Origin: Octopus sinensis
Lineage: Eukaryota
Direction of reading: 5' to 3'
Length of the DNA: 64,000 nt
Assembly: GCF_006345805.1 (NCBI RefSeq)
Contig: NC_043000.1
Coordinates: forward strand, 21,638,001 to 21,702,000
Under the pieces are notes generated by a model that was not told the origin of the DNA, did no database searches, and was given only the letters and a program-made list of their open reading frames with translations. This document shows positions 12,762 through 60,669 of this stretch, one piece after another. Position 1 is the first letter of the stretch. Each line of letters starts with the position of its first letter. The position numbers were made by a program, and so were the translations under genes.

Positions 12762-12826
12762 GTATTTCTTGTATTCAGTTTGATGATACACGAATCGTTA
12801 GTGGATCGTCAGACAAAACTATTCGG
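12762..12826 (+). CDS. F-box/WD40 exon 5 (GISCIQFDDTRIVSGSSDKTIR)
   Basis: TAG/GTATGT boundaries; WD40 repeat 1. Confidence 0.95.
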
Positions 12827-13115
12827 GTATGTTATATCTTAATTATCATTTTGGTTTCTTCTCCACATATTATTCTACTTCAGCTCTTGAATGTTGCATG
12901 TATTAAATATTAATTTCCACTGGCGTTAGGAGAGGCACCTAACTATAAAAATCATACCAAAACAGACAGTGGCTGCGTGGTAAGTAGCTTGCTTACAAAC
13001 CACATGGTTCCAGGTTCAGTCCCACTGTGTGGCACCTTGGGCAAGTGTCTTCTACTATAGCCTCGGGCTGACCAAAGCCTTGAGTGGATTTGCTAGACGG
13101 AAACTGAAAGAAGCC

Positions 13116-13155
<40 letters not shown>

Positions 13156-13297
13156 AATATAAGAGAGTGGTCACTATATGGCTCACTCTAGCACCAGTTA
13201 ATCAAAAGGTTTCAACCACGAAAATACATGCTTCCCATGAAAGTCAGTACGATTGTTAGCTCACACGGACAGGGCAAATAAAAAATAACAAAAATAC

Positions 13298-13392
13298 AGA
13301 TTATTTTGGGACAATTGTTTCGCTATTAATGAATTAAATGTAATTTTACTTACAAAAAAAATCCATTTGTAGCTCGTCAGCCAAAACTATCT
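13298..13392 (-). ncRNA. Type I hammerhead ribozyme
   Basis: Reverse complement of the 14683-14777 motif (TCGTCAG at 13374-13380; GAC at 13310-13312). Confidence 0.85.
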
Positions 13393-13831
13393 AGATGAAA
13401 TCCACTCAATCACACGCCAGATTTACCATAACGATAAATACGCGTGTGGTTCAATTGATTACATCCGACGTTATAATTCAAATGCCCCAACTAACAGCGC
13501 GCCAAACTTTCACGGAAAACAAATACAGCATTTAGAAATAAATGCAGCATAATTATAATTAATTAATAAGGGTGAGAGAATTAGATACTAATTTAATAGT
13601 ATATCTATTCAACACCAAGTGGCTAGTGCTCCGAGAAACCTGGATTATTATAATATTTTATAACATATTATAATATTTTTACAAAATAAATATAAGAGAG
13701 TGGTCACTATATGGCTCACTCTAGCACCAGTTAATCCAAAAGGTTTCAACCACGAAAATACATGCTTCCCATGAAGTCAGTACGATTGTTAGCTCACACG
13801 GACAGGGCAAATAAAAAATAACAAATAATAC

Positions 13832-13926
13832 AGATTATTTTGGGACAATTGTTTCGCTATTAATGAATTAAATGTAATTTTACTTACAAAAAAAATCCAT
13901 TTGTAGCTCGTCAGCCAAAACTATCT
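13832..13926 (-). ncRNA. Type I hammerhead ribozyme
   Basis: Same motif (TCGTCAG at 13908-13914; GAC at 13844-13846). Confidence 0.85.
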
Positions 13927-14153
13927 AGATGAAATCCACTCAATCACACGCCAGATTTGTACCATAACGATAAATACGCGTGTGGTTCAATTGATTACAT
14001 CCGACGTTATAATTCAAATGCCCCAACTAACAGCGCGCCAAACTTTCACGGAAAACAAATACAGCATTTAGAAATAAATGCAGCATATTATAATTAATTA
14101 ATAAGGGTGAGAGAATAGATACTAATTTAATAGTGATTGAGTGGATTTCATCT

Positions 14154-14244
14154 AGAGTTTTGGCTGACGAGCTACAATGGATTTTTTTTGTAAGTAAAAT
14201 TACATTTAATTCATTAATAGCGAAACAATGTCCCAAAATAATCT
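14154..14244 (+). ncRNA. Type I hammerhead ribozyme (1-nt shorter stem III)
   Basis: UUUUGG-CUGACGA-GCUA...UAGC-GAAACAAUGUC-CCAAAA; predicted cleavage after C14232. Confidence 0.75.
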
Positions 14245-14682
14245 GTATTTTTGTTATTTTTATTGCCCTGTCCGTGTGAGCTAACAATCGTACTGACTTT
14301 CATGGGAAGCATGTATTTTCGTGGTTGAAACCTTTTGGATTAACTGGTGCTAGAGTGAGCCATATAGTGACCACTCTCTTATATTTATTTTGTAAAAATA
14401 TTATAATATGTTATAAAATATTATAATAATCCAGGTTTCTCGGAGCACTAGCCACTTGGTGTTGAATAGATATACTATTAAATTAGTATCTAATTCTCTC
14501 ACCCTTATTAATTAATTATAATTATGCTGCATTTATTTCTAAATGCTGTATTTGTTTTCCGTGAAAGTTTGGCGCGCTGTTAGTTGGGGCATTTGAATTA
14601 TAACGTCGGATGTAATCAATTGAACCACACGCGTATTTATCGTTATGGTAAAATCTGGCGTGTGATTGAGTGGATTTCATCT

Positions 14683-14777
14683 AGATAGTTTTGGCTGACG
14701 AGCTACAAATGGATTTTTTTTGTAAGTAAAATTACATTTAATTCATTAATAGCGAAACAATTGTCCCAAAATAATCT
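14683..14777 (+). ncRNA. Type I hammerhead ribozyme
   Basis: Stem I UUUUGG/CCAAAA (extended by AGAU/AUCU). Core CUGACGA at 14695-14701. Stem II GCUA/UAGC. GAAA at 14754-14757. Palindromic stem III ACAAUUGU. GUC cleavage triplet, cut after C14765. Confidence 0.88.
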
Positions 14778-15080
14778 GTATTTTTGTTATTTTTTATTTG
14801 CCCTGTCCGTGTGAGCTAACAATCGTACTGACTTTCATGGGAAGCATGTATTTTCGTGGTTGAAACCTTTTGGATTAACTGGTGCTAGATGAGCCATATA
14901 GTGACCACTCTCTTATATTTATTTTGTAAAAATATTATAATATGTTATAAAATATTATAATAATCCAGGTTTCTCGGAGCACTAGGCCACTTGGTGTTGA
15001 ATAGATATACTATTAATTAGTATCTAATTCTCTCACCCATATTAATTAATTATATATATATATAATATATATATATGATA

Positions 15081-15113
<33 letters not shown>

Positions 15114-15933
15114 ATGTGTGTGTGTGTATGTTTTTGTCTGTGTTTGTCCCCCCAACATCGCTTGACAACCGATGCTGGTGTGTTTACGTCCCTGTAACTT
15201 AGCAGTTCGGCAAAATAGACCGATAGAATAAGTACTAGGCATACAAAGAATAAGTCTTGGGGTCGATTTTCTCGATTTGCCCCAGCATGGCCACAGTCAA
15301 ACGACTGAAACAAGTAAAAGAGAAAGGGAGAGTGGGGCTTGGTACAGTCTTTTGGCTTGCCATCTCCTGCCAAATGCTCCAACTCATGCCACCATCATCA
15401 TGGTGATGATAACGGCCAGCGGGCATCACAATAGTTTCTGAACTAATCCATCTATCTATACCTATAAATATACATTCCTCTATATTTATTTATCTATTCG
15501 ATTGATTCTCCTCCAATAAGTTTACATTTCACAGGATACCAGAATAAGATTCAGACTACCTAGAGAGTTGTCTCCCATGATTGACCATAAAATGAAACTT
15601 GTACACACCGCGATGATACTTCCTGCCTTCTGGTAACAATTCGTTTTGCTGAATTGTTGGTGGATGAAAAAATGTATTCAGTTTCTAAAAAAATTACATT
15701 TGTTTCCCTTTAATGTGTTTATGTAGTTGGTATTATAGTTTCAGAGGAAACAATTAATTAATTACTTCTAAATAACTTAATTTTCTCTCTCTCTAATGTT
15801 TTTTTGTTAATTGTTTCCTATGTTGTCCTTTAAATAGCAAACATATTCTATCAGCTTTCCTAATTCACTCCAGATTTGCTTCAGTCTATTTTTATTAGCA
15901 TCCTCATTCATTCACCTGATACTTATCACCCTT

Positions 15934-16316
15934 GGTGGAGGCGCAATGACCCAGTGGTTAGGGCAGTGGACTCGCGGTCGTAGGATCGCGGTTTTGATTC
16001 CCAGACCGGGCGTTGTGAGTGTTTATTGAGCGAAAACATCTAAAGCTCCACGAGGCTCCGGCAGGGCATGGTGGTGATCCTGCTGTACTCTTTCACCACA
16101 ACTTTCTCTCACTCTTACTTCCTGTTTCTGTTGTACCTGTATTTCAAAGGGCCGGCCTTGTCACTCTCTGTGTCACGCTGAATATCCCCGAGAACTACGT
16201 TAAGGGTACACGTGTCTGTGGAGTGCTCAGCCACTTACACGTTAATTTCACGAGCAGGCTGTTCCGTTGATCGGATCAACTGGAACCCTCGTCGTCGTAA
16301 CCGACAAAGTGCTTCC
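15934..16316 (+). mobile_element. tRNA-derived SINE (family A), full length with 13-bp TSD
   Basis: ACTTATCACCCTT is duplicated at 15921-15933 and 16317-16329; tRNA-like head. Confidence 0.92.
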
Positions 16317-17015
16317 ACTTATCACCCTTCATACTCCAGACATTAAGTGTGCCAACACTGAGGTTGTGGAAGGTATGGGCCAGCAAGACCCAAGGATGGG
16401 AGACAGGATTATGCGTCTGTAAAGAAAGCTTGCATGTGCATTTGGCAGACATTGTAAATATACAAACAGGCTTCAACCTGCATGCGCTTCACCGTTATTT
16501 TATTCACTTCACAATCACTACATCCACCAGGAGATAGACACTAGACAGAGATGGAGTGAAGTGGGGGAGAGCATTCTGTATAGGTAACCACTAGAGGAGC
16601 TAGGAGAAAGACATCTGGTAGACGTTAGAGGGGGAAGACTTTTGGTATAGGGGGTGGGTTGGAAGGGCACACTGCAAATGACAAAACACTATGGATGCCC
16701 TATTCCCTAGCTAAAGGCGATGTAACATTTCCACAAACAAGGTGAAAGCCCCTAATTAACAATCAACATGGGAAAGCAAGTGGGTAAGAAACTGAGAGAG
16801 GGGACATTTTCGAGAATTAGGGCTACAGTCAAGGAGACAATAGAACATTTGGATAAGATAGTGGGAACAAAACAAAACAAATGAAGAAGAGGAATTCTCA
16901 AGATTTAGAGCAACAGTAAACAGAATTGACAGTTGGGTTTGTTAACTTTGCTATAACTTACAGCATGGAATACATGAAACTTTGTGACTAAATAGATAAC
17001 TAAATGAATAATAAT

Positions 17016-17226
17016 TATTCTGTTGCGTCTGGGGAGAGTCATTTTCTTTTTGTACCTTATAATGTAACACACTCACAAGTAAAATTTCCACTTATTTCCT
17101 ATTTTTATTTTCCAAAAATTTCCGTTGCGTCTTGCAAAAATAGGAAATAAGTGGAAATTTTACCGGTGAGTGTGTTACATTATAAGGTACAAAAAGAAAA
17201 TGACTCTCCTCAGATACAACAGAATA
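17016..17226. repeat. Foldback inverted repeat (~90-bp arms, ~29-bp spacer)
   Basis: 17016-17106 is the reverse complement of 17136-17226. Confidence 0.85.
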
Positions 17227-17775
17227 TGCTTCAACACACGAACTCACATAAAGAATCTTGCAAGCCTAATCCAAAAACAAAAAATAATTATAATGAGTGT
17301 TATAAAGTGAAACAATTGAACATTTGCATTTAACTTTACTATAACATACAGCATGGAATAAATGAAACTTTGGGGCTAAATAGATAAATAAATGAACAAT
17401 AATAATTATTACCATACCTTGAAACAGGTGAGGGTTGGTAAGAGGAAGGGAACCCAGCCAAAGAAAATTTTCCCCATCAATTCAATTCAACCCATGTGCA
17501 CATGGAAAAGCAGTTATTAAAATGATTGTGTGTGTGTGTATAAATATGTATATATGTGTGTGTGTGTGTGATTATATATGTATATGTATCCCTATGATTT
17601 TGTTTTCTTGTGTGTGTGTGTGTGTGCATGTATAAAATCATTAAAGGCATTAATGGTTTTTGGATAACTGACAGAAAAAGAACATGTCCATTTCTTGTAT
17701 GTAAACTTTCACTGATGTGCTTCTGTTCAATTTTTTAAATATTATGTGTCCCTATGATTTTTTTTTTCTTTACAG

Positions 17776-17901
17776 GTCTGGAATATTCGAACAAATGCTC
17801 CTTGGTCAGTTCAAACATTAGTTGGCCATAGTGGGACTGTACGGTGTTTGCATTTAGAAGGCAACCGTCTTGTGAGTGGTTCTTCCGACAAAACAATAAA
17901 A
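17776..17901 (+). CDS. F-box/WD40 exon 6 (VWNIRTNAPWSVQTLVGHSGTVRCLHLEGNRLVSGSSDKTIK)
   Basis: CAG/GTAAGC boundaries; WD40 repeat 2. Confidence 0.95.
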
Positions 17902-18092: not shown

Positions 18093-19699
18093 GTAAGAAT
18101 ATTTTTAATTACAAATTGGTCAGATGTCAGCTGTGTTGTAGACCTTTCGATCAACTTATCTCTTTAATTCAAAGCAGGCTAGCTTTGTCACACATGATCA
18201 TTCTGATTCTGGGGATTTTGTTAAGAATACAGGTGTCTGTGAAATACTCGCCCATTTGCACTACATTGTAGTGTAAGTGGGTGAATATTCCATGGGCACT
18301 TGTACCCTTAACACAGTCCTCAGAATCAGCCTGATAGTGTGTGACAATGGTGCAGGCATGGCTGTGTGTTAAGAAGTTTGCTTCCCAACCACATGTTTCC
18401 AGGTTCAGTCCCACTCCGTGGTACCTTGGGCAAGTGTCTTCTACTAACTTTAGTCCAACCAAAGCTTTGTGAATGAATTTTACAAATGGAAAGAAGCCCA
18501 TCTTGTGTGTGTGTGTCTGACTTTGATTGTCCACCATCACCGCTTAACAACCGGTGTTGGGGTGTTTGCATTCTCATAACTTAGCAATTAGGCTAAAAAC
18601 AATAGTGTGTGTACAAGGCTTTAAAACAAAGCAAAAATAAGCACTGGAGTCAATTCATTCAGCTGAAATTCTTCATGGCGGTGCCCCAGCATGGCCACAG
18701 TATAATGACTGAAAAGATAATGGATTGCTAATTAATAACTAATATTTAATTGTTGCCGTCTGGCCCCACCCATATCAGCTTTAATCACCCCAGTTTTCCT
18801 GGACCACATTGACAGTGTCCTGTGATCAAATGGAATTCAGTCACCAATTGACATGCTCCAACCTCTAGTCCTCAAGTCTGCTGTCTCCTATCTCTGGCTT
18901 TTTTTATTGCTTCTCTAATCACCTCTCTTCCTCAAAACTAGCTGATCTTGTACCTCCACCATTCAAACACTCCAACCTAATTGTCTCTCCACCTCTTATC
19001 ACTCTTAGTACATCCAACCTGCACACACACACATATTAACCTCTATACTCTGGCCTTGCTTCCTAGAACTTCTGCTTTCAAGTTCACTGACCTCCAAGGG
19101 TCTACAAAAGCCATGAGTAATAATAACCTTTCCTTCAGATTCAACAAATAGAAAACAAAGATCTCTGATCAAAGGTGCTCTAGTCATGATTGTCCTCTCT
19201 TTTGTTTTATTCTGGTCCATGTACCATTGACTACAATATCCAATGTCCTCTCCTTTACGACAGGATGTAATTTAAAGGAAATTTGACTGCTGTTTCTAGC
19301 AGATCAAGTGACCGCATAGAAGTTGCCACTTCATTTCACATTCCTCCAATCCCCTAAGCTGAAAATAAGTACCATCAGTAGCTGGGAATTAACTCTGTGA
19401 AGGCTTGCAGGGTCTTCAGAGAGAAGTTTTATATTCTAAGTCACCTAAATTCCTTGAAAATCTAGATAAGCTCTGACCTCATGGATCTCAAGAGAGACTT
19501 TACACTGTAGAGACCCCTTATAACAAGAAATCTGGATAAGATTTGCCTCTAAGTTCGTGACAGACTTTATAGTATAGAGGCACCTTATAATATGAAAACT
19601 TACTTCAAGTGTTTATCCATACAGCAACATTTCTTCTTTCTCTCGAGCTTTAAGTTTTTAAAAAGTTTTTACCAAAGAAATAAAAAAAAAAATGATCAT

Positions 19700-44290: not shown

Positions 44291-44322
<32 letters not shown>

Positions 44323-44414
44323 TATACACATATACATACATATATACATATACATACATATATACGTATACACATAGACATATATATGTATATATATATA
44401 TTATACATATACAT

Positions 44415-44451
<37 letters not shown>

Positions 44452-44464
44452 CATATATATACAT

Positions 44465-44508
<44 letters not shown>

Positions 44509-44510
<2 letters not shown>

Positions 44511-46857
44511 CATCATCATCATCATCATCATCGTTTAACGTCCGCTTTCCCTGCTAGCATGGGTTGGACTGTTCAACTGGGGTCTGGCAAGCCCGAAGGC
44601 TGCACCAGGCCAATCAGATCTGGCAGTGTTTCTACAGCTGGATGCCCTTCTTAACGCCAACCACTCCGAGAGTGTAGTGGGTGATTTTATGTGCCACCGA
44701 CACAGGTGCCAGACGAGGCTGGCAGACGGCCACGCTCGGATGGTGTTTTTTATGTGCCACCGACACAGGTGCCAGATGAGGCTGGCTGACGGCCACGCTC
44801 GGATGGTGTTTTCTTATGTGTCACCGACACAGGTGCCAGACGAGGCTGGCGGACGGCCACGCTCGGATGGTGTTTGTTACGTGCCCTCAGCACGGAGGCC
44901 AGTCATTGCGGTACTGGCTACGGTCACGTTCGGATGGTTTTCTTATGTGCCACCGCCACTGGTACCACAAGGATACAAATCCCATTGATGTTCATCTATT
45001 TTGATTTGGTTCGATTTGATTTGATTTGATTCGATTCTCACTTGCCTCAACAGGTCTTCACAAGTGTCACAAGAAGGAAGGTATGCACAGGTGGACTGAC
45101 TACGTCCCAGGTAAGGGCCACGGGTTATGGCTTCACTAGTCTTGCCGGGTCTTCTCACGCACAGCATACTTCCATAGGTCTCGGTCTCTAGTCATTTCCA
45201 TGGTGAGACCTAACGTCCGACGGTCGTGCTTCACCACCTCGTCCCAGGTTTTCCTAGGTCTACCTCTTCCACGGGTTCCCTCAACTGCTAGGGATTGGCA
45301 CTTTCTCACATACCTATCTTCATCCATTCTCGCCACATGACCATACCAGCGCAATCGTCTCTCTTGCACACCACAACTGATGCTTCTTAGGTACAACATT
45401 TCTCTCAAGGTACTAACGCTCTGTCGAGTAAGTACACTGACATTACACATCCATCGGAGCATACTGGCTTCGTTCCTCACGAGCTTACGCATGTCCTCAG
45501 CAGTCACGGCCCATGTTTCACTGCCATGTAGCATAGCTGTTCGAACACATGCATCATACAGTCTGCCTTTTACTCTGAGCGAGAGGCCTTTAGTCACCAG
45601 CAGAGGTAAGAGCTCCCTAAACTTTGCCCAGGCTATTCTTATTCTAGCAGTTACACTTTCAGTGCACCCACCCCCACTACTGACTTGGTCACCTAGATAG
45701 CGGAAGCTATCAACTACTTCTAGTTTTTCCCCCCGGAAAGTGACGGAAGTTGTTTTCTGCAGATTTTCGGAGGTCAATGCTCCAGAGCATCTGCCACATA
45801 CAAAAACTATCTTCCCAGTTAGCCTACCTTTGACATTGCTGCACCTCTTATGTGTCCATAGCTTACACTGGGTACATCTTATAGAGTTTCTACCTACACC
45901 TTTTCTACAGATCGAGCAGGGCCATCTTCCTGAGGATATTTGTGGATTGTCTACCTTTCTACTTATTAGTACTTTAGTTTTAGCTAGGTTGACTCTAAGG
46001 CCCCTCGATTCTAAACCCTCCTTCCACACCTGGAACTTCTCCTCCAGTTCTGATAGTGACTCAGCAATTAGAGCGAGGTCGTCAGCATAGAGGAGCTCCC
46101 AGGGGCAACCTGTCTTGAATTCCTCCACAATTGCCTGGAGGACTATGATAAATAGGAGGGGGCTGGGTACTGAACCCTGGTGGACCCCAACCTCTACTTT
46201 GAATTCTTCTGTGTACATGTTGCCAACTCTAACCTTACTTATGGCATCTCTGTACATGGCTTGCACAGCCCTCACCAGCCATTCATCTATCCCTAGTTTC
46301 CTCATTGACCACCAGATGAGGGATCGGGGGACCCTATCAAAGGCTTTCTCCATGTCAACGAAAGCCAGGTACAGGGGCTTATCTTTGGCTAGGTATTTCT
46401 CCTGCAGCTGCCTTACCAGGAATATAGCATCAGTGGTGCTTTTCCCTGGGACAACCCAAACTGCATCTCATCTAACTAACTCTCTCTCTAATTAGTTGGG
46501 CTATGACCCTCTCCGTAACATTCATTACCTGATCCAACAGCTTGATACCTCTGTAATTATTTGTATCTAGGGCATCACCTTTACCTTTGTAGCAGTTGAC
46601 TAGTATGCTGCTACACCAGTCATTGGGTATGACTCCTTCGTGTATCACCTGGTTGACTATACGGGTGACTAGGTTTTAGCCAACACTGCCAGATATTTTG
46701 AGCATCACTGCAGCAATTCCTGATGGCCTGGGGCTTTCCTGTCTTCCCTGCTTCAGCTTCTATTGCCTTAGCTACCACGGAACTATCAACTCGGATAGCT
46801 GGTCCCTCTGTTGGGTCAACATTCGGCAGACTCTCTTTATCCCATTCATTTTCTTTA

Positions 46858-46858
<1 letters not shown>
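44509..46858 (-). mobile_element. 5'-truncated RTE-clade LINE, copy 1, in (TA)n
   Basis: RT motifs VDMEKAFDRVP, GVHQGS and LLYADD, plus GRGRPRKTW. Frameshifts near 46450-46770. (GAT)n tail. Confidence 0.93.
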
Positions 46859-46904
<46 letters not shown>

Positions 46905-48346
46905 ATATATATTTATATATACAAACTATACTACTCAAAACACCATACCTTCCCACTGCTTCCCCCAAAGAATGTGTCTATATGTGTTTAAAATGATGAA
47001 GTATGTATGTATATATCCATAATAAGTGCATGTATGTGTATATGTGTGCCTCTGTGTATGTGTGTGTGTGAAAGGCACCTCATTTTATGGGGGGGGGGTT
47101 CTTGCGCATGGGATCATAGTGCCCTCACATTGGGACTTGATAGCTTGTCCTGGCTTGTTTCTGGATCATGTAAATAGGGTGCAAAGGATCAGTGAGGGAT
47201 CAGCCCAACCTTATTGGATTTAAAATTCTAGGTCGTACAATCGCTAGGTAAGAGTCATTTACCATGCTTGGTCAATTAGGAGGGCCCTGCGGCATGCATG
47301 AAGGCCACAGCTGCAAATCTGAATAAAGCTGCCATGAACACAATACTACTTAGAACTGTCCTTGCAGACATTTCACATGGTAGATGGTCAGTGATGACCT
47401 TTTTACTCATGAGTGGATAGCCATCGTCATCATCACCATATATACATAAATACATATATACATACACGAAGAATTCATGTTTACATATATACATAACTAC
47501 AAACAATCATACACACACATATACACATATACATACATATATACATATACATACACACACACACACATATCTGTGCAAACATAAACAACAACATAGTTAA
47601 ATACAAATACAACTGTACACATACACCCACATACATTCATCATACACACGTATTTATATCCATATATGTACATATACATAGCTATCTGCGTACCTGCTAT
47701 TTCTTACACAATGAAACACTATTTCTTTTCTTTAACAATTCTAAAGAAATTCTAAAATATCTCAATTTATTGTCATTAAATTTCTTATCCCTATTCAAAT
47801 CTTAGGTCAACCTTTTGTGTCAATTTAGAAACACGCATGAATAAATGTATGTGGGTGTATGTATTTAGAAAAAATAGGTAAGACCGAAATATGTATATGC
47901 TCACACCTCTCCTTCAATTCATCTATCTGTCTATACATACATGCATATACTCATATATACATATATATATAAATTGAATGTATAGACATATAAGTATATA
48001 ATTAGGGGATATGTTAACCTTTTGAAGGGATGGTTGAATTCAAGAAAACACTGGTTGAATACCTAGTATTTTGGGGCAATGAAATACCCTTAAAACAATA
48101 GGTATATATTAAGAATATAGTTTATATCCATTTCAAAAAGAAAAGAAAATGGAGATAAGGAAGTTGATAATTGTTTATTGCTTAGAAAGTGGTCATCTTC
48201 GCTGCTTACAATTGTTTCAATAAATTAATTACAAATTTGTACATTGATATTACATTTATGTGACCAAAGAAAAAAAGCTGCTCCTTTTGATGTTATATAT
48301 GGACTCATCTTCTTTTTTCCTTTTAAACGGATGTAAACTCTGTGTG

Positions 48347-48415
<69 letters not shown>

Positions 48416-48829
48416 ACATATGTATGTATATATATATGTGTGTATATGTATATGTATATATCTGTACACGTCTCTCATTGGACACTAAACTTCAGTTTTG
48501 AGGACCTGTTAAGGCAAGTGAAATCAAATTCGTTGAGATGACCGATGATAGCACCGCCTGACTGGCAACCACACCAGTGGAATACTAAAAGCACCATCCG
48601 AGCATGAATGTTGTCAGTGCCGCTGTACTAGCTCCTGTTCTGGTGGCATGTAAAAAACACCATTTGAGTGTGGCTATTGGCAGTACCACATGGCTGGCTC
48701 TCGTGCCAGTGGCACGTAAAAGCACCCATTACACTCTTGGAGTGGTAGGTGTTAGAAGGGCATCCAGCGGTAGAAACCCTACCTGATCAGATAGGAGCCC
48801 GGTGCAGCCTTCTGGGCAGGATCTTCCAG

Positions 48830-49330
48830 ATATATATTACTGCGTACCTCTCCTGTCTTCTCTCCGGGGAGTAGAGTCTTAAGTGTTTCAACCTTTCCCA
48901 GTAGCTGAGCTGTTACAAAGAAACGATTTTCTTTGTGAATCTTCTCTGGATTGCTTCAAGGTCTGCTGTTAATTTCACGCAGGTGGCTGACCATAGCTGT
49001 GAGCAATAATCCAGGTAGCTGAGGACGAATGTCCGCCAGTGGACCATCATGGTTTCCTTATCTCTTGTTCGGAATGTTCTTAGGATCCATCCAGTCAGTC
49101 GTCTGCACTTTGTCGCCATCATGGTAATTTGCACTTGGAAAGAGGTATCATAACTCATGTCTATACCCAGGTCCCTCACTGACTAAGCTCTGGGACTGAA
49201 ATTCCCTGTGGACCAGTGTCCCCTGTAAGTTAGGTTTTGTTGCTGGTGGTGTGGGGCTTGGAATTTTTCAGCATTAAACTGCATATTATTATCCTCAGCC
49301 AATCTGTAAATGGATTCCAACTCCTTCTGC
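48830..49330 (-). pseudogene. CR1-type LINE fragment of the 39.9-kb family (duplicate at ~58680-59180)
   Basis: RDLGIDMS...GWILRTFRTRDKETMMVHWRTFVLSYLDYCSQLWS. Confidence 0.85.
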
Positions 49331-49370
49331 ATATTCATATACCTATAGACTTATATATATATATATACAT

Positions 49371-49421
<51 letters not shown>

Positions 49422-49474
49422 ATAGATATATATATATATAGATAGATAGATAGATAGGTAGATAGATATAGATA

Positions 49475-50452
49475 TAACTTAACTTAGAATAACTTAGAAA
49501 GGTTTTGGCCAGTATTGGCCCAGGCCATGTCTAACTTAATAGCACCACCTGGTGAAGTCTTTCAGTTCAGGATTTGGGCACCAAGGCCCATTCGAGCAGA
49601 GAGTTATTGTTTGCGGAGACATATCCGGGTGTGGGTGGTTTGTCCGGTACTGTTTGAAGGAATTTGTCCAAAGACTTCTTGAATTTTGTGTGGTCAGTTT
49701 CTTTTTTGACGTGCCCTGGTGTAATGTTGAAGAGAGCAGGTCAATTGAGTGAAATAGTTTGTGCCGTATTGTCGTTATGTGATGCGATTTAGATTTTTGT
49801 TGTGGACGGATGGCACGTGGTCCAAGCTTGGATGCATTTTGAAGGTGATGCCAACATCATTCGGACAGTGCTGGTGGAATATTTTCCACATCATACAGAT
49901 AATGTAGCGTTCACGGCGTCGTTGGAGTGAATACAATTTCAGCTTCTCTAGTCTACCCCAGTAGTCAAGGTCTGACATGCCATCTATCTTTTTTGTGATT
50001 GACCTTTGGGGAGCTTCAATTCTCATAATATTTTGTTTTTGTAGGGAGACCACAGTGGACAGCAGTATTCAAGGTGGGGTCGGGCAAAAGTGGAGAAGAG
50101 AAGGATAATAGCGTGGGAATCTCTCGACTGGAAGGTTCTGAGAATCCAGGAACACATTCTGCGGGCCATGTCAACTTTGCTGCTTATATGTGTAGCCCAG
50201 CTTATGTTGTTGTCCACTGTTACTCCCAGGTCTCTGATGTTGTTGGATGCCATAAGAATTTCTCCAGAAGGAAGAGAGTATGGGAGTTTCAGAGCGTCCT
50301 CCCTTCCAAAGTGGATCAGTTCAAATTTGTCTTCATTTAGCAACATGTTATTCTTTTCCGCCCATTGGACAACAGCCAGTAGGTCTGACTGAAGGTTTAT
50401 TTGGTCATCCACGCCATTGATGACCTTCTGGAGCTTCTGACCTTCTGGAGCT
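49475..50452 (-). mobile_element. 5'-truncated CR1-type LINE in (TA)n (duplicate at ~59318-60301)
   Basis: LQSDL..V.QWAEKNNM, RDLGV, RPHLEYCCPLWSP and LYSLQRRRERY motifs; TAAGT-type tail. Confidence 0.9.
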
Positions 50453-50529
50453 ATGTATATATATATACATATACATACATAATATATATATATATATATA
50501 GATAGATAGATATATATACATATACATAC

Positions 50530-50571
<42 letters not shown>

Positions 50572-50572
50572 A

Positions 50573-50645
<73 letters not shown>

Positions 50646-50673
50646 TAGATATATATATACATATACATACATA

Positions 50674-50873
<200 letters not shown>

Positions 50874-51287
50874 CATATACATGTATATTTATGTGTGTGT
50901 ATATATATGTATGTTTATGATCTAAAATGCTCCAGCTAGGGTGTGGTTTAACAAATCTTATGAAATTGAACCATATTCATTGTTGAATAGAATCTAATCT
51001 GTTTCTCCTCTAAATATTTAACTTCCTAAGTAAAGCGGCAACGTGACTTAACTATGAAAATGAGAGGGAGAGACTAAGAGTGAGAGGGTGGGGAGGGAGA
51101 GAGAGGCAGACAGACAGGCAGAGGGGTGGGTGCAATAAAGCATAGAGAGATATAACAAAGCAACAACTAAAAAAAATCGGACAATGATTTTAACAAATTA
51201 AAGAAAAGCAGACACTGACATACATTTGGATGAGTGTATATAATACTTATATACATATATATATATATATATATATACTAGCAGAAT

Positions 51288-53248
51288 TGCCCGGCGTTGC
51301 TCGGGGTGAATTGTTGAAAGTACTGTTAATGATTGCACTGAATTATGATGATTATTCAGGCAAATATTGATATAAGCTTACGGTGGGAGATAAGGACTTA
51401 ACGATCAAACGTGTGCCATTGCATTGTTTTGGGGGAACCAAATTTCTGATGAGCATTATAGGGGCACCAACTTTAAGTTTGAGAAAGTGTGGTGGTAGTC
51501 CGGGGTGCTCCAAGGAATTGAGTACCTCTATTGGATAGTTGATGATGTCCTCTGGGTCAGGAGTTGTATCGATAGACTGATATACACAGACTTCCCCAGG
51601 AATGAGTTTTAGCATTTCATCATTAATATGGTGAACAGTTTTATTCCTCGGGGCCAGTATAGCCTTTTTGCCAATCCAATCCATATTCTGATAATTCGCT
51701 TGTAGATCTGGGAACACTGCATCTCTGAGATCAGAAGGCGTCTTAACAATGGTACAAATGGAATCGATGGTAATATTACCATTTTCATCCCCTGGTATTT
51801 TGCCTTCGCCAAGTTTGCACTTGGCGAAGGCAAAATACCAGTGTGTGAGGAAATGCTGCTGATGTGATATTACGTCGCATATGAGCACGCATATTGGTGT
51901 GAAGTTTGAGAGTTACTTCCCTTTATTTAAAAAAATTTGCATTAAAATGGAAAAATTATGGTAAATTATTTGTAAAATCATAGACTCATCGTAGACGCGC
52001 GCTAATACCCAGAAGGGCTCGATATGAATCCCGACTATAAGATACCCGGTTTTGGTTAAACTGCATCGCAAAATGTGGGAGTAGTTAGGAATCTAAATCG
52101 GAGTAGACAGACACACAACCTTTCTTTATATATAAATATTTTCGTCCTAAAAAACTTTGTATGGATTGAATGGTTACCTCTATGGAAATATATACACACA
52201 CATTATACATACATGTGTGTATAGATGAATATATAAATACATTTAAATATCTATATACACTTTTGGGCGATCTTTCTGTTCTTAGAGATAACTTTAGATC
52301 TTATTTTCGTCCTAAAAAACTTTGTATGGAGTGAATGGTTACCTCTATGGAAATATATACACACACATTATACATACATGTGTGTATAGATGAATATATA
52401 AATACATTTATATATCTATATACACTTTTGGGCGATCTTTCTGTTCTTAGAGATAACTTTAGATCTTATTTTCGTCCTAAAAAACTTTGTATGGAGTGAA
52501 TGGTTACGTGTATGGAAATATATACACACACATTATACATACATCTGTGTATAGATGAATATATAAATACATTTAAATATCTATATACACTTTTGGGCGA
52601 TCTTTCTGCTACTTGTATATACTTTAGATCTTATATTCGTCCTAAAAAACTTTGTATGGAGTGAAAGTTTACCTCTATGGAAATATATACACACACATTA
52701 TACATACATCTGTGTATAGATGAATATATAAATACATTTAAATATCTATATACACTTTTGGGCGATCTTTCTGCTACTTGGATATAGGTCTTATATTCGT
52801 CCTAAAAAACTTTCCTGTCACACACTCACGCACACGCACACACACACGCACCCTCACACACACACACGCACACACACACACACACACTCACACACACACG
52901 TTAGCTTACAATTTTATTTATATATTTGCGTGTCTATGTGTGTAAAGAGGAAGTGGCAGAGTGAAAGAGTCACTCACTACAAAAAGTGAATTACTTTCAC
53001 TTTATTCGTTGCACACTGTGTGTGTGCGTGTGCGTGTGGTGTAGGCCACACTAAGAGAAGCATTTGACTTAGACACCACAATGTGAGTTTTCTCTAGATT
53101 TTGCTTAATTGGGGTTGAAATTTTAAAAACTGGACCTGGCACGACCCAATGCATTCTACTCTTAAAAATGCTAGGTAAATTGTAATTGAAGAAATCCTAT
53201 ATTGTAGATTTCTATAAGATACAAAGGGAGGCAGATAAAATCTGCCTT
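51288..53248 (-). mobile_element. Non-autonomous Helitron with PIF1-helicase fragment, copy 1
   Basis: 3' end CCCGAGCAACGCCGGG hairpin plus CTAG|T. ORF 51352-51888 reads AILAPRN...PGLPPHFLKLKVGAPIMLIRNL..CNGTRL (RepHel helicase). Confidence 0.9.
52139..52810. repeat. 165-bp tandem repeat, 4 copies (3 copies at 61942-62450)
   Basis: TTCGTCCTAAAAAACTTT recurs near 52143, 52308, 52473, 52638 and 52798. Confidence 0.92.
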
Positions 53249-53280
53249 TGTATATACATATATTTACATGTATGTATGTG

Positions 53281-53418
<138 letters not shown>

Positions 53419-54088
53419 TATATACATATATATAGAAGGTGGGCCGCTCATATACACAGCAAAGTTAACATGGTCAGCAGAATGTGTTCCTGGATTCTCA
53501 GAACTTCCAGTCGAGAGATATCCTGATATCCTCACCATTATCCTTCTCTTCTCCACTTTTGCCTGACCCCTCTTTCAATACAGTTGTCCACTTTGGTCTC
53601 CCCTCATAGAACAAATTCCCATGAAACATGAAGCACCTCAAACGTCAATTACAAAAAGACAGTCCTTGACCATTGGAGTCGACTAGAAAAGCTCAAGCTT
53701 TATTCTCTTCGATGTCGTCATGAGCGCTGTATCATCTGCATGAGGTGGAAAATATTCCAGCAGCAGTTCCCGAATGATGCTGGCATCTCCTTTAAGATAC
53801 ACCCAAGACTTCTGCCCCATGCGATCCACCAACCACATAAATCCCACTTGCATCTCATAATAACAATTTGGCACGATTATTTCACATCAAGTGGCCCCAC
53901 TCTCTTTAACATGATATCAAAACACATTAAAGCAGAAACAGACCCCCATAAAGTTCAAGAAGTCTCAGGAAAAACTCCTTCAAAAAATCCCGAATAAACT
54001 TCGTTCACCAAGATATATCTCTGTAAACTATAACTCTCTACTTGGGTGGGACATGGTGTCCGACTTCTGATTTGACTAAAATCGCCAA

Positions 54089-54129
<41 letters not shown>

Positions 54130-54219
54130 TATACACATATACATACATATATACATATACATACATATATACGTATACACATAGACGTATATATGTATAT
54201 ATATATTATACATATACAT

Positions 54220-54292
<73 letters not shown>

Positions 54293-54297
54293 TATAT

Positions 54298-54332
<35 letters not shown>

Positions 54333-54336
54333 TTAT

Positions 54337-56682
54337 ATCATCATCATCATCATCATCATCGTTTAACGTCCGCTTTCCCTGCTAGCATCGGTTGGACTGT
54401 TCAACTGGGGTCTGGCAAGCCCGAAGGCTGCACCAGGCCAATCAGATCTGGCAGTGTTTCTACAGCTGGATGCCCTTCTTAACGCCAACCACTCCGAGAG
54501 TGTAGTGGGTGATTTTATGTGCCACCGACACAGGTGCCAGACGAGGCTGGCAGACGGCCACGCTCGGATGGTGTTTTTTATGTGCCACCGACACAGGTGC
54601 CAGACGAGGCTGGCTGACGGCCACGCTCGGATGGTGTTTTTTATGTGCCACCGACACAGGTGCCAGACGAGGCTGGCGGACGGCAACGCTCGGATGGTGT
54701 TTGTTACGTGCCCTCAGCACGGAGGCCAGTCATTGCGGTACTGGCTACGGTCACGTTCGGATGGTTTTCTTATGTGCCACCGCCACTGGTACCACAAGGA
54801 TACAAATCCCATTGATGTTCATCTATTTTGATTTGGTTCGATTTGATTTGATTTGATTCGATTCTCACTTGCCTCAACAGGTCTTCACAAGTGTCACAAG
54901 AAGGAAGGTATGCACAGGTGGACTGACTACGTCCCAGGTAAGGGCCACGGGTTATGGCTTCACTAGTCTTGCCGGGTCTTCTCACGCACAGCATACTTCC
55001 ATAGGTCTCGGTCTCTAGTCATTTCCATGGTGAGACCTAACGTCCGACGGTCGTGCTTCACCACCTCGTCCCAGGTTTTCCTAGGTCTACCTCTTCCACG
55101 GGTTCCCTCAACTGCTAGGGATTGGCACTTTCTCACATACCTATCTTCATCCATTCTCACCACATGACCATACCAGCGCAATCGTCTCTCTTGCACACCA
55201 CAACTGATGCTTCTTAGGTACAACATTTCTCTCAAGGTACTAACGCTCTGTCGAGTAAGTACACTGACATTACACATCCATCGGAGCATACTGGCTTCGT
55301 TCCTCACGAGCTTACGCATGTCCTCAGCAGTCACGGCCCATGTTTCACTGCCATGTAGCATAGCTGTTCGAACACATGCATCATACAGTCTGCCTTTTAC
55401 TCTGAGCGAGAGGCCTTTAGTCACCAGCAGAGGTAAGAGCTCCCTAAACTTTGCCCAGGCTATTCTTATTCTAGCAGTTACACTTTCAGTGCACCCACCC
55501 CCACTACTGACTTGGTCACCTAGATAGCGGAAGCTATCAACTACTTCTAGTTTTTCCCCCCGGAAAGTGACGGAAGTTGTTTTCTGCAGATTTTCGGAGG
55601 TCAATGCTCCAGAGCATCTGCCACATACAAAAACTATCTTCCCAGTTAGCCTACCTTTGACATTGCTGCACCTCTTATGTGTCCATAGCTTACACTGGGT
55701 ACATCTTATAGAGTTTCTACCTACACCTTTTCTACAGATCGAGCAGGGCCATCTTCCTGAGGATATTTGTGGATTGTCTACCTTTCTACTTATTAGTACT
55801 TTAGTTTTAGCTAGGTTGACTCTAAGGCCCCTCGATTCTAAACCCTCCTTCCACACCTGGAACTTCTCCTCCAGTTCTGATAGTGACTCAGCAATTAGAG
55901 CGAGGTCGTCAGCATAGAGGAGCTCCCAGGGGCAACCTGTCTTGAATTCCTCCACAATTGCCTGGAGGACTATGATAAATAGGAGGGGGCTGGGTACTGA
56001 ACCCTGGTGGACCCCAACCTCTACTTTGAATTCTTCTGTGTACATGTTGCCAACTCTAACCTTACTTATGGCATCTCTGTACATGGCTTGCACAGCCCTC
56101 ACCAGCCATTCATCTATCCCTAGTTTCCTCATTGACCACCAGATGAGGGATCGGGGGACCCTATCAAAGGCTTTCTCCATGTCAACGAAAGCCAGGTACA
56201 GGGGCTTATCTTTGGCTAGGTATTTCTCCTGCAGCTGCCTTACCAGGAATATAGCATCAGTGGTGCTTTTCCCTGGGACAAACCCAAACTGCATCTCATC
56301 TAAACTAACTCTCTCTCTAATTAGTTGGGCTATGACCCTCTCCGTAACATTCATTACCTGATCCAACAGCTTGATACCTCTGTAATTATTTGTATCTAGG
56401 GCATCACCTTTACCTTTGTAGCAGTTGACTAGTATGCTGCTACACCAGTCATTGGGTATGACTCCTTCGTGTATCACCTGGTTGACTATACGGGTGACTA
56501 GGTTTTAGCCAACACTGCCAGATATTTTGAGCATCACTGCAGTAATTCCTGATGGGCCTGGGGCTTTCCCTGTCTTCATGCTTCTAATTGCCTTAGCTAC
56601 CACGGAACTATCAACTCGGATAGCTGGTCCCTCTGTTGGGTCAACATTCGGCAGACTCTCTTTATCCCATTCATTTTCTTTA
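54337..56682 (-). mobile_element. 5'-truncated RTE-clade LINE, copy 2, frame open to the stop at 54963
   Basis: Frame runs from KENEWD...GKAPGPSGI through the RT motifs to REKTRQD*. 3'UTR with 63-bp repeats. Confidence 0.95.
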
Positions 56683-56729
<47 letters not shown>

Positions 56730-58184
56730 ATATATATTTATATATACAAACTATACTACTCAAAACACCATACCTTCCCACTGCTTCCCCCAAAGAATGT
56801 GTCTATATGTGTTTAAAATGATGAAGTATGTATGTATACATCCATAATAAGTGCATGTATGTGTATATGTGTGCCTCTGTGTATGTGTGTGTGTGAAAGG
56901 CACCTCAATTTATGGGGGGGGGGTTCTTGCGCATGGGATCATAGTGCCCTCACATTGGGACTTGATAGCTTGTCCTGGCTTGTTTCTGGATCATGTAAAT
57001 AGGGTGCAAAGGATCAGTGAGGGATCAGCCCAACCTTATTGGATTTAAAATTCTAGGTCGTACAATCGCTAGGTAAGAGTCATTTACGATGCTTGGTCAA
57101 TTAGGAGGGCCCTGCGGCATGCATGAAGGCCACAGCTGCAAATCTGAATAAAGCTGACCATGAACACAATACTACTTAGAACTGTCCTTGCAGACATTTC
57201 ACATGGTAGATGGTCAGTGATGACCTTTTTTACTCATGAGTGGATAGCCATCGTCATCATCACCATATATACATAAATACATATATACATACACGAAGAA
57301 TTCATGTTTACATATATACATAACTACAAACAATCATACACACACATATAAATCCAAACATAGGTATACACACACACACACACACACACACATATCTGTG
57401 CAAACATAAACAACAACATAGTTAAATACAAATACAACTGTACACATACACCCACATACATTCATACACACGTATTTATATCCATATATGTACATATACA
57501 TAGCTATCTGCGTACCTGCTATTTCTTACACAATGAAACACTATTTCTTTTTTTAACAATTCTAAAGAAATTCTAAAATATCTCAATTTATTGTCATTAA
57601 ATTTCTTATCCCTATTCAAATCTTAGGTCAACCTTTTGTGTCAATTTAGAAACACGCATGAATGAATGTATGTGGGTGTATGTATTTAGAAAAAATAGGT
57701 AAGACCGAAATATGTATATGCTCACACCTCTCCTTCAATTCATCTATCTGTCTATACATACATGCATATACTCATATATACATATATATATAAATTGAAT
57801 GTATAGACATATAAGTATATAATTAGGGGATATGTTAACCTTTTGAAGGGATGGTTGAATTCAAGAAAACACTGGTTGAATACCTAGTATTTTGGGGCAA
57901 TGAAATACCCTTAAAACAATAGGTATATATTAAGAATATAGTTTATATCCATTTCAAAAAAGAAAAGAAAATGGAGATAAGGAAGTTGATAATTGTTTAT
58001 TGCTTAGAAAGTGGTCATCTTCGCTGCTTACAATTGTTTCAATAAATTAATTACAAATTTGTACATTGATATTACATTTATGTGACATGAGTATAATTTC
58101 ATCAAAGAAAAAAAGCTGCTCCTTTTGATGTTATATATGGACTCATCTTCTTTTTTCCTTTTAAACGGATATAAACTCTGTGTG

Positions 58185-58272
<88 letters not shown>

Positions 58273-59228
58273 GTATATATATATGTGTGTATATGTATAT
58301 GTATATATCTGTACACGTCTCTCATTGGACACTAAACTTCATTTTTGAGGACCTGTTAAGGCAAGTGAAATCAAATTCGTTGAGATGACCGATGATAGCA
58401 CCGCCTGACTGGCAACCACACCAGTGGAATACTAAAAGCACCATCCGAGCATGAATGTTGTCAGTGCCGCTGTACTAGCTCCTGTTCTGGTGGCATGTAA
58501 AAAAACACCATTTGAGTGTGGCTATTGGCAGTACCACATGGCTGGCTCTCGTGCCAGTGGCACGTAAAAGCACCCATTACACTCTTGGAGTGGTAGGTGT
58601 TAGAAGGGCATCCAGCGGTAGAAACCCTACCTGATCAGATAGGAGCCTGGTGCAGCCTTCTGGGCAGGATCTTCCAGATATATATTACTGCGTACCTCTC
58701 CTGTCTTCTCTCCGGGGAGTAGAGTCTTAAGTGTTTCAACCTTTCCCAGTAGCTGAGCTGTTACAAAGAAACGATTTTCTTTGTGAATCTTCTCTGGATT
58801 GCTTCAAGGTCTGCTGTTAATTTCACGCAGGTGGCTGACCATAGCTGTGAGCAATAATCCAGGTAGCTGAGGACGAATGTCCGCCAGTGGACCATCATGG
58901 TTTCCTTATCTCTTGTTCGGAATGTTCTTAGGATCCATCCAGCCAGTCGTCTGCACTTTGTCGCCATCATGGTAATTTGCACTTGGAAAGAGGTATCATA
59001 ACTCATGTCTATACCCAGGTCCCTCACTGACTAAGGCTCTGGGACTGAAATTCCCTGTGGACCAGTGTCCCCTGTAAGTTAGGTTTTGTTGCTGGTGGTG
59101 TGGGGCTTGGAATTTTTCAGCATTAAACTGCATATTATTATCCTCAGCTAATCTGTAAATGGATTCCAACTCCTTCTGCATATTCATATACCTATAGACT
59201 TATATATATATATACATACATGCATAAA

Positions 59229-59277
<49 letters not shown>

Positions 59278-60375
59278 TAGATAGATAGATAGATAGATAG
59301 GTAGATAGATATAGATATAACTTAACTTAGAATAACTTAGAAAGGTTTTGGCCAGTATTGGCCCAGGCCATGTCTAACTTAATAGCACCACCTGGTGAAG
59401 TCTTTCAGTTCAGGATTTGGGCACCAAGGCCCATTCGAGCAGAGAGTTATTGTTTGCGGAGACATATCTGGGTGTGGGTGGTTTGTCCGGTACTGTTTGA
59501 AGGAATTTGTCCAAAGACTTCTTGAATTTTGTGTGGTCAGTTTCTTTTTTGACGTGCCCTGGTGTAATGTTGAAGAGAGCAGGTCCAATTGAGGTGAAAT
59601 AGTTGTGCCGTATTGTCGTTATGTGATGCGATTTAGATTTTTGTTGTGGACGGATGGCACGTGGTCCAAGCCTTGGATGCATTTTGAAGGTGATGCCAAC
59701 ATCATTCGGACAGTGCTGGTGGAATATTTTCCACATCATACAGATAATGTAGCGTTCACGGCGTCGTTGGAGTGAATACAATTTCAGCTTCTCTAGTCTA
59801 CCCCAGTAGTCAAGGTCTGACATGCCATCTATCTTTTTTGTGATTGACCTTTGGGGAGCTTCAATTCTCATAATTTTTGTTTTGTGTAGGGAGACCACAG
59901 TGGACAGCAGTATTCAAGGTGGGGTCGGGCAAAAGTGGAGAAGAGAAGGATAATAGCGTGGGAATCTCTCGACTGGAAGGTTCTGAGAATCCAGGAACAC
60001 ATTCTGCGGGCCATGTCAACTTTGCTGCTTATATGTGTAGCCCAGCTTATGTTGTTGTCCACTGTTACTACTCCCAGGTCTCTGATGTTGTTGGATGCCA
60101 TGAGAATTTCTCCGGAAGGAAGAGAGTATGGGAGTTTCAGAGCGTCCTCCCTTCCAAAGTGGATCAGTTCAAATTTGTCTTCATTTAGCAACATGTTATT
60201 CTTTTCCGCCCATTGGACAACAGCCAGTAGGTCTGACTGAAGGTTTATTTGGTCATCCACGCCATTGATGACCTTCTGGAGCTTCTGACCTTCTGGAGCT
60301 ATGTATATATATATACATATACATACATAATATATATATATATATAGATAGATAGATATATATACATATACATAC

Positions 60376-60422
<47 letters not shown>

Positions 60423-60608
60423 GATAGATAGATAGATATAGATATATATATACATATACATACATAATATATATATACACACACAATATATATATGTATA
60501 TATAGAATGTATACACAATATATATATGAAAAATTATATATACACACACACACACATATATATATATACACACAATATATGTATATATTGTGTGTGTATA
60601 TATATATA

Positions 60609-60669
<61 letters not shown>

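What the first reader, a model, noticed from the sequence alone, without database searches (positions are those of the whole stretch)
12827..17775. Sense-strand ribozymes and a ~0.9-kb hairpin inside intron 5 of the F-box/WD40 pre-mRNA
Seen: the gene is on +, so its pre-mRNA contains two sense hammerheads (predicted cuts after 14232 and 14765, 533 nt apart). An almost perfect antisense arm (13151-14134) precedes them. Inference: host transcription could excise a unit-length RNA without any element promoter. Alternatively the arms anneal into long dsRNA that silences the ribozymes and forms an ADAR or Dicer substrate; coleoid cephalopods are known for heavy A-to-I editing. The competition could affect splicing of exons 5-6.
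Basis: inference. Interest (0 to 1): 0.75.

Follow-up and report, generated by a model that had tools for sequence, protein, structure and literature searches.

The report
Two-armed retrozyme silenced in an intron
This is one of hundreds of young copies of a non-coding jumping repeat that carries predicted self-cutting RNAs and lands as two back-to-back arms, so when the host gene is read through it, the first arm is predicted to pair with and block the self-cutting RNAs in the second and likely makes a target for RNA editing rather than releasing a unit RNA.

Summary
Intron 12827-17775 of an F-box/WD40 gene holds a 1.9-kb insert: an antisense arm (13150-14134), then a sense arm (14133-15055) with two minimal type I hammerheads (cuts after 14232 and 14765). 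It is one of at least 541 young copies of a 534-nt non-coding Penelope-type retrozyme in (TA)n. The hairpin is the family's insertion geometry, not a feature of this intron. In 125 of 126 two-arm loci with both outer ends at a fixed site, one arm ends at each site, and both arms share locus-specific variants, which suggests one RNA primed twice. Read-through from either side meets the antisense arm first. Folding puts both hammerheads in a ~790-bp duplex, so host-driven excision is unlikely. One RNA-like run shows family RNA hyper-edited A-to-G, but it cannot be assigned to this locus. Array-fixed variants lean A-to-G (25 vs 12), hinting that edits are inherited; a 60-locus replication was too small to confirm this. 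An effect on splicing is untested. The scan already noted this architecture, probably this family, and inherited editing on other DNA.

The parts
12762..12826 (+). Host exon upstream of the intron (WD40 repeat of an F-box/WD40 gene)
   Evidence: AG/GT borders; Pfam WD40 E 0.0033, below cut-off
12827..17775 (+). Host intron (GT...AG) that holds the insert; intron number not verified
12970..13118 (+). Left half of an older host repeat, split by the insert
   Evidence: matches positions 19-161 of the uninterrupted copy at 18341-18700
13121..13150 (.). (TA)n target microsatellite, left side
13150..14134 (-). Antisense arm, about 1.85 units of the 534-nt repeat; outer end at unit position ~160 (site A)
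13303..13387 (-). Minimal type I hammerhead on the - strand, predicted cut after 13310
13837..13921 (-). Minimal type I hammerhead on the - strand, predicted cut after 13844
14133..14134 (.). Head-to-head junction of the two 5'-truncated arms, 2-nt overlap
   Evidence: family distribution
14133..15055 (+). Sense arm, about 1.7 units; outer end at unit position ~290 (site B)
14157..14239 (+). Sense hammerhead 1, predicted cut after 14232; stem-III loop one base short of the family form
14688..14772 (+). Sense hammerhead 2, predicted cut after 14765; family form with self-complementary stem III
13147..14928 (+). Predicted ~790-bp duplex in the pre-mRNA (13147-13947 with 14133-14928) that covers both sense hammerheads
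15052..15147 (.). (TA)n/(TG)n microsatellite, right side
15121..15215 (+). Right half of the split host repeat
   Evidence: matches positions 164-257 of the copy at 18341-18700
17776..17901 (+). Host exon downstream of the intron (WD40 repeat)
   Evidence: Pfam WD40 E 2.4e-7

Best explanation
The insert is a recent copy of a non-coding, hammerhead-bearing 534-nt repeat found at hundreds of (TA)n sites, likely pasted in by a Penelope-type enzyme that primed one RNA from both cut DNA strands, and in the host pre-mRNA its first-made antisense arm is predicted to pair with the sense arm, block both ribozymes and likely draw A-to-I editing, with likely little effect on the gene. Shown: the family, its copy number, the two-arm geometry, the one-end-at-each-site rule, variants shared by both arms, and A-to-G-rich contigs of family RNA. 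Inferred: mobilisation by a Penelope-like reverse transcriptase/GIY-YIG protein; a circular or uncut multimeric template copied round and round; the duplex beating self-cleavage in vivo; editing of this particular copy. Productive unit RNA would more likely come from transcription that starts inside an array and runs outward, or from one-arm copies, than from read-through of a two-arm copy.
For: Family: 978 candidates, 40 scored, most matches 94-100% identical; 541 exact B-end and 236 exact A-end junctions with (TA)n, reversed-pattern controls 0. Geometry: 34 of 41 loci have two outward arms, 33 of 34 with one end at A and one at B (p 4e-9). Of 80 loci picked by a B end, the partner end is A in 50, elsewhere in 5, absent in 24, off the edge in 1 and never a true B. 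Of 60 loci picked by an A end, the partner end is B in 42, A in 0, elsewhere in 1, absent in 17. One template: opposite arms of a locus differ by 0.36 substitutions per 100 nt, the same arm by 0.43, different loci by 2.17; the partner arm is closer than the average arm in 58 of 58 loci. This copy has two variants in both arms. Only 1 of 254 inner ends lies within 5 nt of the hammerhead cut, so copying runs through the cut site; 61 of 127 junctions have 1-6 nt overlap and 30 are blunt. Inverted 5'-truncated copies, a one-sided tail and (TA)n targeting are described for Penelope-like elements (PMC8557442 passages); cutting and extending both strands from two internal start sites was shown in vitro (PMC11167929). 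Intact 775-781 aa RT + GIY-YIG elements exist in this genome. Fold: -1437 kcal/mol, 83 of 83 and 85 of 85 hammerhead bases paired long-range; duplex with the antisense arm -125 and -134 kcal/mol against -19 and -25 for the local folds. Editing: run X5 shows 19 A>G among 29 change places, 13 of them absent from DNA-like run X15, and contigs with 8-14 differences in 80-160 nt.
Against: No RNA read could be assigned to this locus; all runs were contigs of a multi-copy family, their RNA status is a guess, and X5 and X15 carry different organism labels. Only 1 of 5 RNA-like runs shows a strong editing signal. X1, from the same study, is weak (5 A>G, 4 also seen in DNA-like runs); X2 and X13 show none beyond genomic variants; X12 had only 2 contigs. 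The edits in X5 are mostly on the ribozyme strand (19 A>G vs 4 T>C), whereas read-through hairpins should be edited on both arms, so most edited family RNA may not come from hairpins like this one. No autonomous partner sharing sequence with the unit was found among 50 GIY-YIG loci. No listed short-read contig bridges this locus's central junction (the list is truncated). MFE folding ignores kinetics and bound proteins.
Confidence: 0.72

Rival explanations
1. Host transcription excises a 533-nt unit RNA between the two sense hammerheads, which circularises and seeds new insertions without any element promoter.
For: Two cores 533 nt apart on the sense strand. The unit folds well as a circle (z -5.3 against 30 shuffles). 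Local hairpins form faster than long-range duplexes (general knowledge). Editing could later loosen the duplex.
Against: The complement of each hammerhead is made 0.3-1.4 kb earlier and pairs it fully. Stem III has only 2-3 bp, a type that needs dimers or protein (PMC7229834 passages; PMC11167929). Hammerhead 1 has a shortened stem-III loop in the assembly (1 of 366 copies). Both cuts are needed on one molecule.
Confidence: 0.1
2. The insert regulates the host gene: cleavage, dsRNA or cryptic signals change splicing or levels of the F-box/WD40 mRNA, like the intronic CPEB3 ribozyme.
For: Precedent for an intronic ribozyme tuning its mRNA (PMC10919898, abstract only). The sense arm has GTAAGT donor-like hexamers at 14190 and 14722, and the antisense arm six AATAAA on +. 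Retrozymes are depleted from introns in Xenopus, which suggests a cost (bioRxiv 2026.07.22.740005 passages).
Against: The insert is very young, one of hundreds, and lies 320 nt from the donor and 2.7 kb from the acceptor. Introns cut by a slow hammerhead still splice (PMC2995048 passages). No GT-AG joint inside the unit appeared in the laid contigs. AATAAA is expected by chance in A-rich DNA. Even in Xenopus 42-44% of copies are intronic.
Confidence: 0.1
3. The hairpin at this locus is a long-read fold-back or assembly artefact.
For: About six single-base deletions cluster within 110 nt of the centre. No listed contig bridges the junction.
Against: The flanks are unique and are the two halves of one host repeat. 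The two arms end at different fixed sites, which a fold-back read cannot produce. Short-read contigs of X15 show six other joints from the antisense part to the sense part at depth 13-48.
Confidence: 0.04

Closest known systems
Metazoan non-LTR retrozymes (Cervera and de la Pena 2020, PMC7229834; Li, Clavereau and Pollet 2026, bioRxiv 10.64898/2026.07.22.740005)
   Same: Non-coding, low-GC tandem units, each with a type I hammerhead; dispersed; proposed to be non-autonomous Penelope derivatives that move through RNA circles.
   Different: The unit (534 nt) is longer than the 170-400 nt reported. Most copies are two outward arms with fixed, unequal ends; the word 'inverted' does not occur in the first paper's text and only in a reference title in the second. 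Circles and self-cleavage were not shown here.
Penelope-like element insertions with inverted 5'-truncated copy and 'tail' (PMC8557442; PMC11167929)
   Same: Inverted upstream copy, one-sided extension, (TA)n targeting, no visible target-site duplication, two internal start sites.
   Different: No ORF; the tail is about 130 nt rather than 30-40; both arms can be multi-unit arrays; the one-end-at-each-site rule holds in 125 of 126 loci.
Hyper-edited inverted repeats in introns (PMC5625713)
   Same: Long, nearly perfect intronic dsRNA from mobile elements; the octopus CNS has the most hyper-edited reads in the part of that table I saw, and lizard Penelope is named as massively edited.
   Different: Here the duplex arises within a single insertion and covers ribozymes; the editing seen is family-level only.
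Intronic self-cleaving ribozymes such as CPEB3 (PMC10919898, abstract)
   Same: A ribozyme on the sense strand of an intron.
   Different: CPEB3 is, from recall, a single conserved HDV-like ribozyme; this is a young multi-copy parasite whose ribozymes are predicted to be blocked.

Membership tests
Non-LTR retrozyme | Tandem units each with a type I hammerhead | tested here: met
   4 cores in 4 units here; 279 of 320 hammerhead spans in 180 loci match the strict intact pattern
Non-LTR retrozyme | Non-coding, low GC, no LTR | tested here: met
   GC 0.32-0.34. ORFs of 200 aa or more were listed for 80 B-end loci; by their coordinates none lies within the units. PBS and PPT were not searched.
Non-LTR retrozyme | Dispersed mobile copies | tested here: met
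   541 B-end and 236 A-end junctions on many contigs; this copy splits an older repeat
Non-LTR retrozyme | Self-cleavage of the RNA | not testable with these tools
   Structure only; Rfam 0 matches
Non-LTR retrozyme | Circular RNA | tested here: inconclusive
   Contigs join the unit end to start, but tandem DNA does the same. Indirect support: variants fixed across whole arrays and both arms; inner ends not at the cut site
Non-autonomous Penelope-like element | Inverted 5'-truncated copy with one-sided tail, AT-rich or microsatellite target | tested here: met
   definition from PMC8557442
Non-autonomous Penelope-like element | Sequence shared with an autonomous PLE of the same genome | tested here: inconclusive
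   None among 50 GIY-YIG loci, a small sample of 5029 candidates
ADAR hyper-edited repeat | Clustered A>G in RNA absent from DNA of the same individual | tested here: inconclusive
   13 A>G places in X5 absent from X15, but different samples and labels, contigs only, not locus-specific; 5' neighbour A/U in 17 of 19 vs 93 of 133, p 0.10
Regulatory intronic ribozyme | Cleavage or structure alters host mRNA maturation | not testable with these tools
   No locus-specific RNA data

The most novel reading that the evidence does not exclude
The family replicates through a monomeric RNA circle that is A-to-I edited and then copied by twin-primed rolling-circle reverse transcription, so single editing events become A-to-G changes fixed in every unit of both arms of a new germ-line insertion (for example L157, L057, and A79G in this copy). 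RNA editing would then drive the sequence evolution of a ribozyme retroelement, while the obligatory antisense-first layout mutes the ribozymes whenever a host gene reads through.
Probability: 0.35. Interest if true: 0.68.

Novelty: new member of a known kind. Interest (0 to 1): 0.42.

Why it matters
For the host gene it probably matters little. For the family, the geometry answers a general question: how can hundreds of self-cleaving RNAs sit in introns? Any read-through of a two-arm copy makes the antisense strand first. The strict one-end-at-each-site rule and the variants shared by both arms give a genomic read-out of the two-start-site priming shown in vitro for a lizard Penelope element, and indirect support for the proposed circular template of animal retrozymes. 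If the A-to-G excess among array-fixed variants holds up, RNA edits are being inherited through retrotransposition in an animal group known for heavy editing.

Tried and rejected
Rfam scan of the window: 0 matches. Search for the autonomous partner: 147 GIY-YIG matches; 50 loci compared with the unit gave no shared sequence apart from neighbouring insertions (L102, L103) and a 30-nt weak match in L114; none of 80 B-end loci continued into a Penelope-like ORF by inspection. Sequencing runs: no RNA holder listed on record; all laid runs were contigs, so starts, ends, strand, circles and small RNAs could not be seen. Presence/absence of this insert and transcription of the host gene were not tested: both read-laying runs went to repeat-free stretches of the element. 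Inherited editing: the replication planned in advance (60 new loci) gave only 6 new array-fixed variants (1 A>G, 0 T>C) and 7 vs 5 over all fixed variants (p 0.25), so it did not confirm the bias. All rare differences, including unreplicated ones, show no bias (43 A>G vs 49 T>C, p 0.4), and no heavily edited single copy was found among 180 loci. A>G sites are not more paired than other A in the predicted circle. Arm length does not differ between A and B arms (p 0.43). Rows dropped: L166 (apparent duplicate of L165) from the variant counts; L051, L062, L150, L191, L218 and L166 from the junction count; unit positions 150-200 and 275-298 (152-175 and 280-296) were masked as AT-rich ends. Literature: no paper held 4 of 5 terms on edited RNA retrotransposed into genomic copies; searches listed nothing on this for retrozymes (listings only); 'octopus' occurs 0 times in both retrozyme papers. 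Supplements of the bioRxiv preprint were not seen and could list a mollusc among its four invertebrates.
Full report
1. Observation. The intron runs GT...AG from 12827 to 17775 between two exons that translate as WD40 repeats; an F-box-like stretch lies upstream on the same strand. I did not verify that it is intron 5. A hammerhead descriptor scan of the whole window, both strands, gave four cores, all in one insert: cuts after 14232 and 14765 on +, after 13844 and 13310 on -. Each has a 7-bp stem I, a 4-bp stem II with a long loop and a 2-3 bp stem III: a minimal type I hammerhead. Rfam gave 0 matches. The antisense arm (13150-14134) aligns to the sense arm (14133-15055) over 828 columns at 97.8%. 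The insert sits in a (TA)n run that splits an older host repeat, of which an unbroken copy lies at 18341-18700.

2. It is a family. A search of the window's genome gave 978 candidates, of which 40 were scored, most matches 94-100% identical. Exact patterns for the two outer junctions occur 541 and 236 times, controls 0. With the unit numbered from the hammerhead cut, outer ends fall at ~160 (site A) or ~290 (site B). Of 41 loci, 34 have two arms, all pointing outward, and 33 of the 34 have one A and one B end (p 4e-9 against free choice); the exception, L062, mixes two haplotypes. Among 80 loci picked by a B end, the other end is A in 50, elsewhere in 5, absent in 24 (L191 was flagged B by the script but is a single arm) and off the edge in 1. 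Among 60 picked by an A end, it is B in 42, A in 0, elsewhere in 1 and absent in 17. The window's copy (A left, B right) is typical, so the hairpin is the family's insertion geometry.

3. How it inserts (inferred). Opposite arms of one locus differ by 0.36 substitutions per 100 nt, units of one arm by 0.43, different loci by 2.17; the partner arm is closer than the average arm in 58 of 58 loci and no other arm is strictly closer in 44 of 58. This copy carries A79G and C451T in both arms. Inner ends are scattered, with 1 of 254 within 5 nt of the cut site; 61 of 127 junctions overlap by 1-6 nt and 30 are blunt. Arrays reach 10 full units. This fits one template primed from both DNA strands at two start sites and copied through the cut site: a circle or an uncut multimer. 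Craig et al. describe inverted 5'-truncated copies, a 30-40 bp one-sided tail and (TA)n bias for Penelope-like elements (PMC8557442, passages). Frangieh et al. show a Penelope protein cutting and extending both strands from two internal start sites that define the tail (PMC11167929, main text parts 1-2 of 4). The genome holds intact 775-781 aa RT + GIY-YIG elements, but none of 50 GIY-YIG loci shares sequence with the unit, so the partner is unidentified.

4. What happens in the pre-mRNA. Because both arms point outward, a polymerase entering from either side makes the antisense arm first (geometry). The MFE fold of 13100-15100 is a 792-bp duplex (-1437 kcal/mol) in which 83 of 83 and 85 of 85 hammerhead bases pair long-range; a nascent RNA ending at 14250 already buries hammerhead 1. 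Each hammerhead's duplex with its antisense copy is worth -125 and -134 kcal/mol, its local fold -19 and -25. Hammerheads with a short helix III cleave weakly as monomers and better as dimers (PMC7229834, passages), and the lizard Penelope hammerhead did not cleave without protein. Hammerhead 1 also lacks one base of the self-complementary loop that 351 of 366 copies have; RNA-like contigs show the family letter, so this is an assembly error or a private lesion. Excision by host transcription is therefore unlikely (about 0.1). Even if a cut occurred, introns cut by a slow hammerhead still splice in mammalian systems (PMC2995048, passages). None of this was measured at this locus.

5. Editing. 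All runs were contigs and none is on record as RNA. On one sense unit, RNA-like run X5 has 19 A>G among 29 change places; 13 are absent from DNA-like run X15; four contigs carry 8-14 differences in 80-160 nt at depth 2.6-4.4. X1, from the same study, gave a weak signal (5 A>G of 8 places, 4 also in DNA-like runs); X2 and X13 gave none beyond genomic variants; X12 had 2 contigs. X5 and X15 carry different organism labels, and nothing ties these contigs to this locus. The edits are mostly on the ribozyme strand (19 vs 4, sites not independent), which suggests that most edited family RNA is sense RNA, not two-arm hairpins. Hyper-editing of mobile-element duplexes, lizard Penelope included, is known (PMC5625713, passages).

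6. Inherited edits? Variants fixed across the units of a locus must predate integration. In 120 loci they are A>G at 24 of 120 A and T>C at 12 of 171 T on the ribozyme strand (p 0.003), while single-unit differences show no bias (11 vs 19, p 0.71). L157 has 8 A>G among 11 such variants and L057 4 of 4. The replication planned in advance (note) was uninformative: 6 new variants (1 A>G, 0 T>C), 7 vs 5 overall, p 0.25. Combined it is 25 vs 12 (p 0.0014), with A or U as 5' neighbour in 21 of 25 vs 55 of 95 (p 0.019), and 20 vs 12 without L157 and L057 (p 0.019). All rare differences show no bias (43 vs 49). Polarity rests on the majority letter, and transcription-linked mutation bias (recalled) is an alternative. 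I rate inherited editing at about 0.35.

7. Comparison and novelty. It is a new member of the animal non-LTR retrozymes (PMC7229834; bioRxiv 10.64898/2026.07.22.740005, part 1 of 5 and passages) with Penelope-type insertion marks; cleavage and circles remain unshown. My reading was formed before I looked at earlier notes. They report the same two-arm rule for several other families in this genome, a ~534-nt unit in another intron, probably this family, and inherited editing at other loci; they are unchecked and not counted as support. Searches listed no paper on edited retrozyme RNA fixed in DNA or on twin priming of retrozymes; subscription journals are not covered.

8. Verdict. The intron is an ordinary landing site. 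The likely outcome of read-through is a long, editable duplex that mutes the ribozymes. Interest 0.42.

Noticed in passing
L157, outermost B-end partial unit: The terminal partial unit has A at unit positions 242 and 255, where all inner units of both arms that cover them have G: a template switch after the first ~50 nt copied, or a polishing artefact.
   Followed up: no
L100-L114 (G000 C1:207472500 and others): A young Penelope-like family with intact 781-aa RT + CxxC linker + GIY-YIG frames, a ~1-kb 3' region and two alternative 3' ends about 30 nt apart in (TA)n; no hammerhead found in it by the descriptor.
   Followed up: partly
L043 3468-7090: An array of this retrozyme sits in the (TA)n at the 3' end of one of those Penelope-like copies.
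   Followed up: no
L103:1351, L107:8021 and 8416, L116:247: Other hammerhead families with different sequence lie near GIY-YIG loci.
   Followed up: no
window 14190 and 14722: A GTAAGT donor-like hexamer lies in the stem-II loop of each hammerhead; another family's hammerhead (L116) has the same hexamer there. No spliced joint was seen in the laid contigs.
   Followed up: partly
L062: The only locus with both ends at site A mixes two haplotypes, likely two insertions or a recombinant.
   Followed up: partly
window 44291-63500: Tandem-repeat rows recur at a spacing of about 9.8 kb (for example 44685 and 54513, 52137 and 61940), suggesting a local duplication or an uncollapsed haplotype.
   Followed up: no
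window 17016-17226: A 91-bp inverted repeat (95%, 29-nt loop) in the same intron, a second small potential dsRNA.
   Followed up: no
L165/L166 and L102/L103: Pairs of near-identical loci 9 kb and 27 kb apart, likely local duplications.
   Followed up: no
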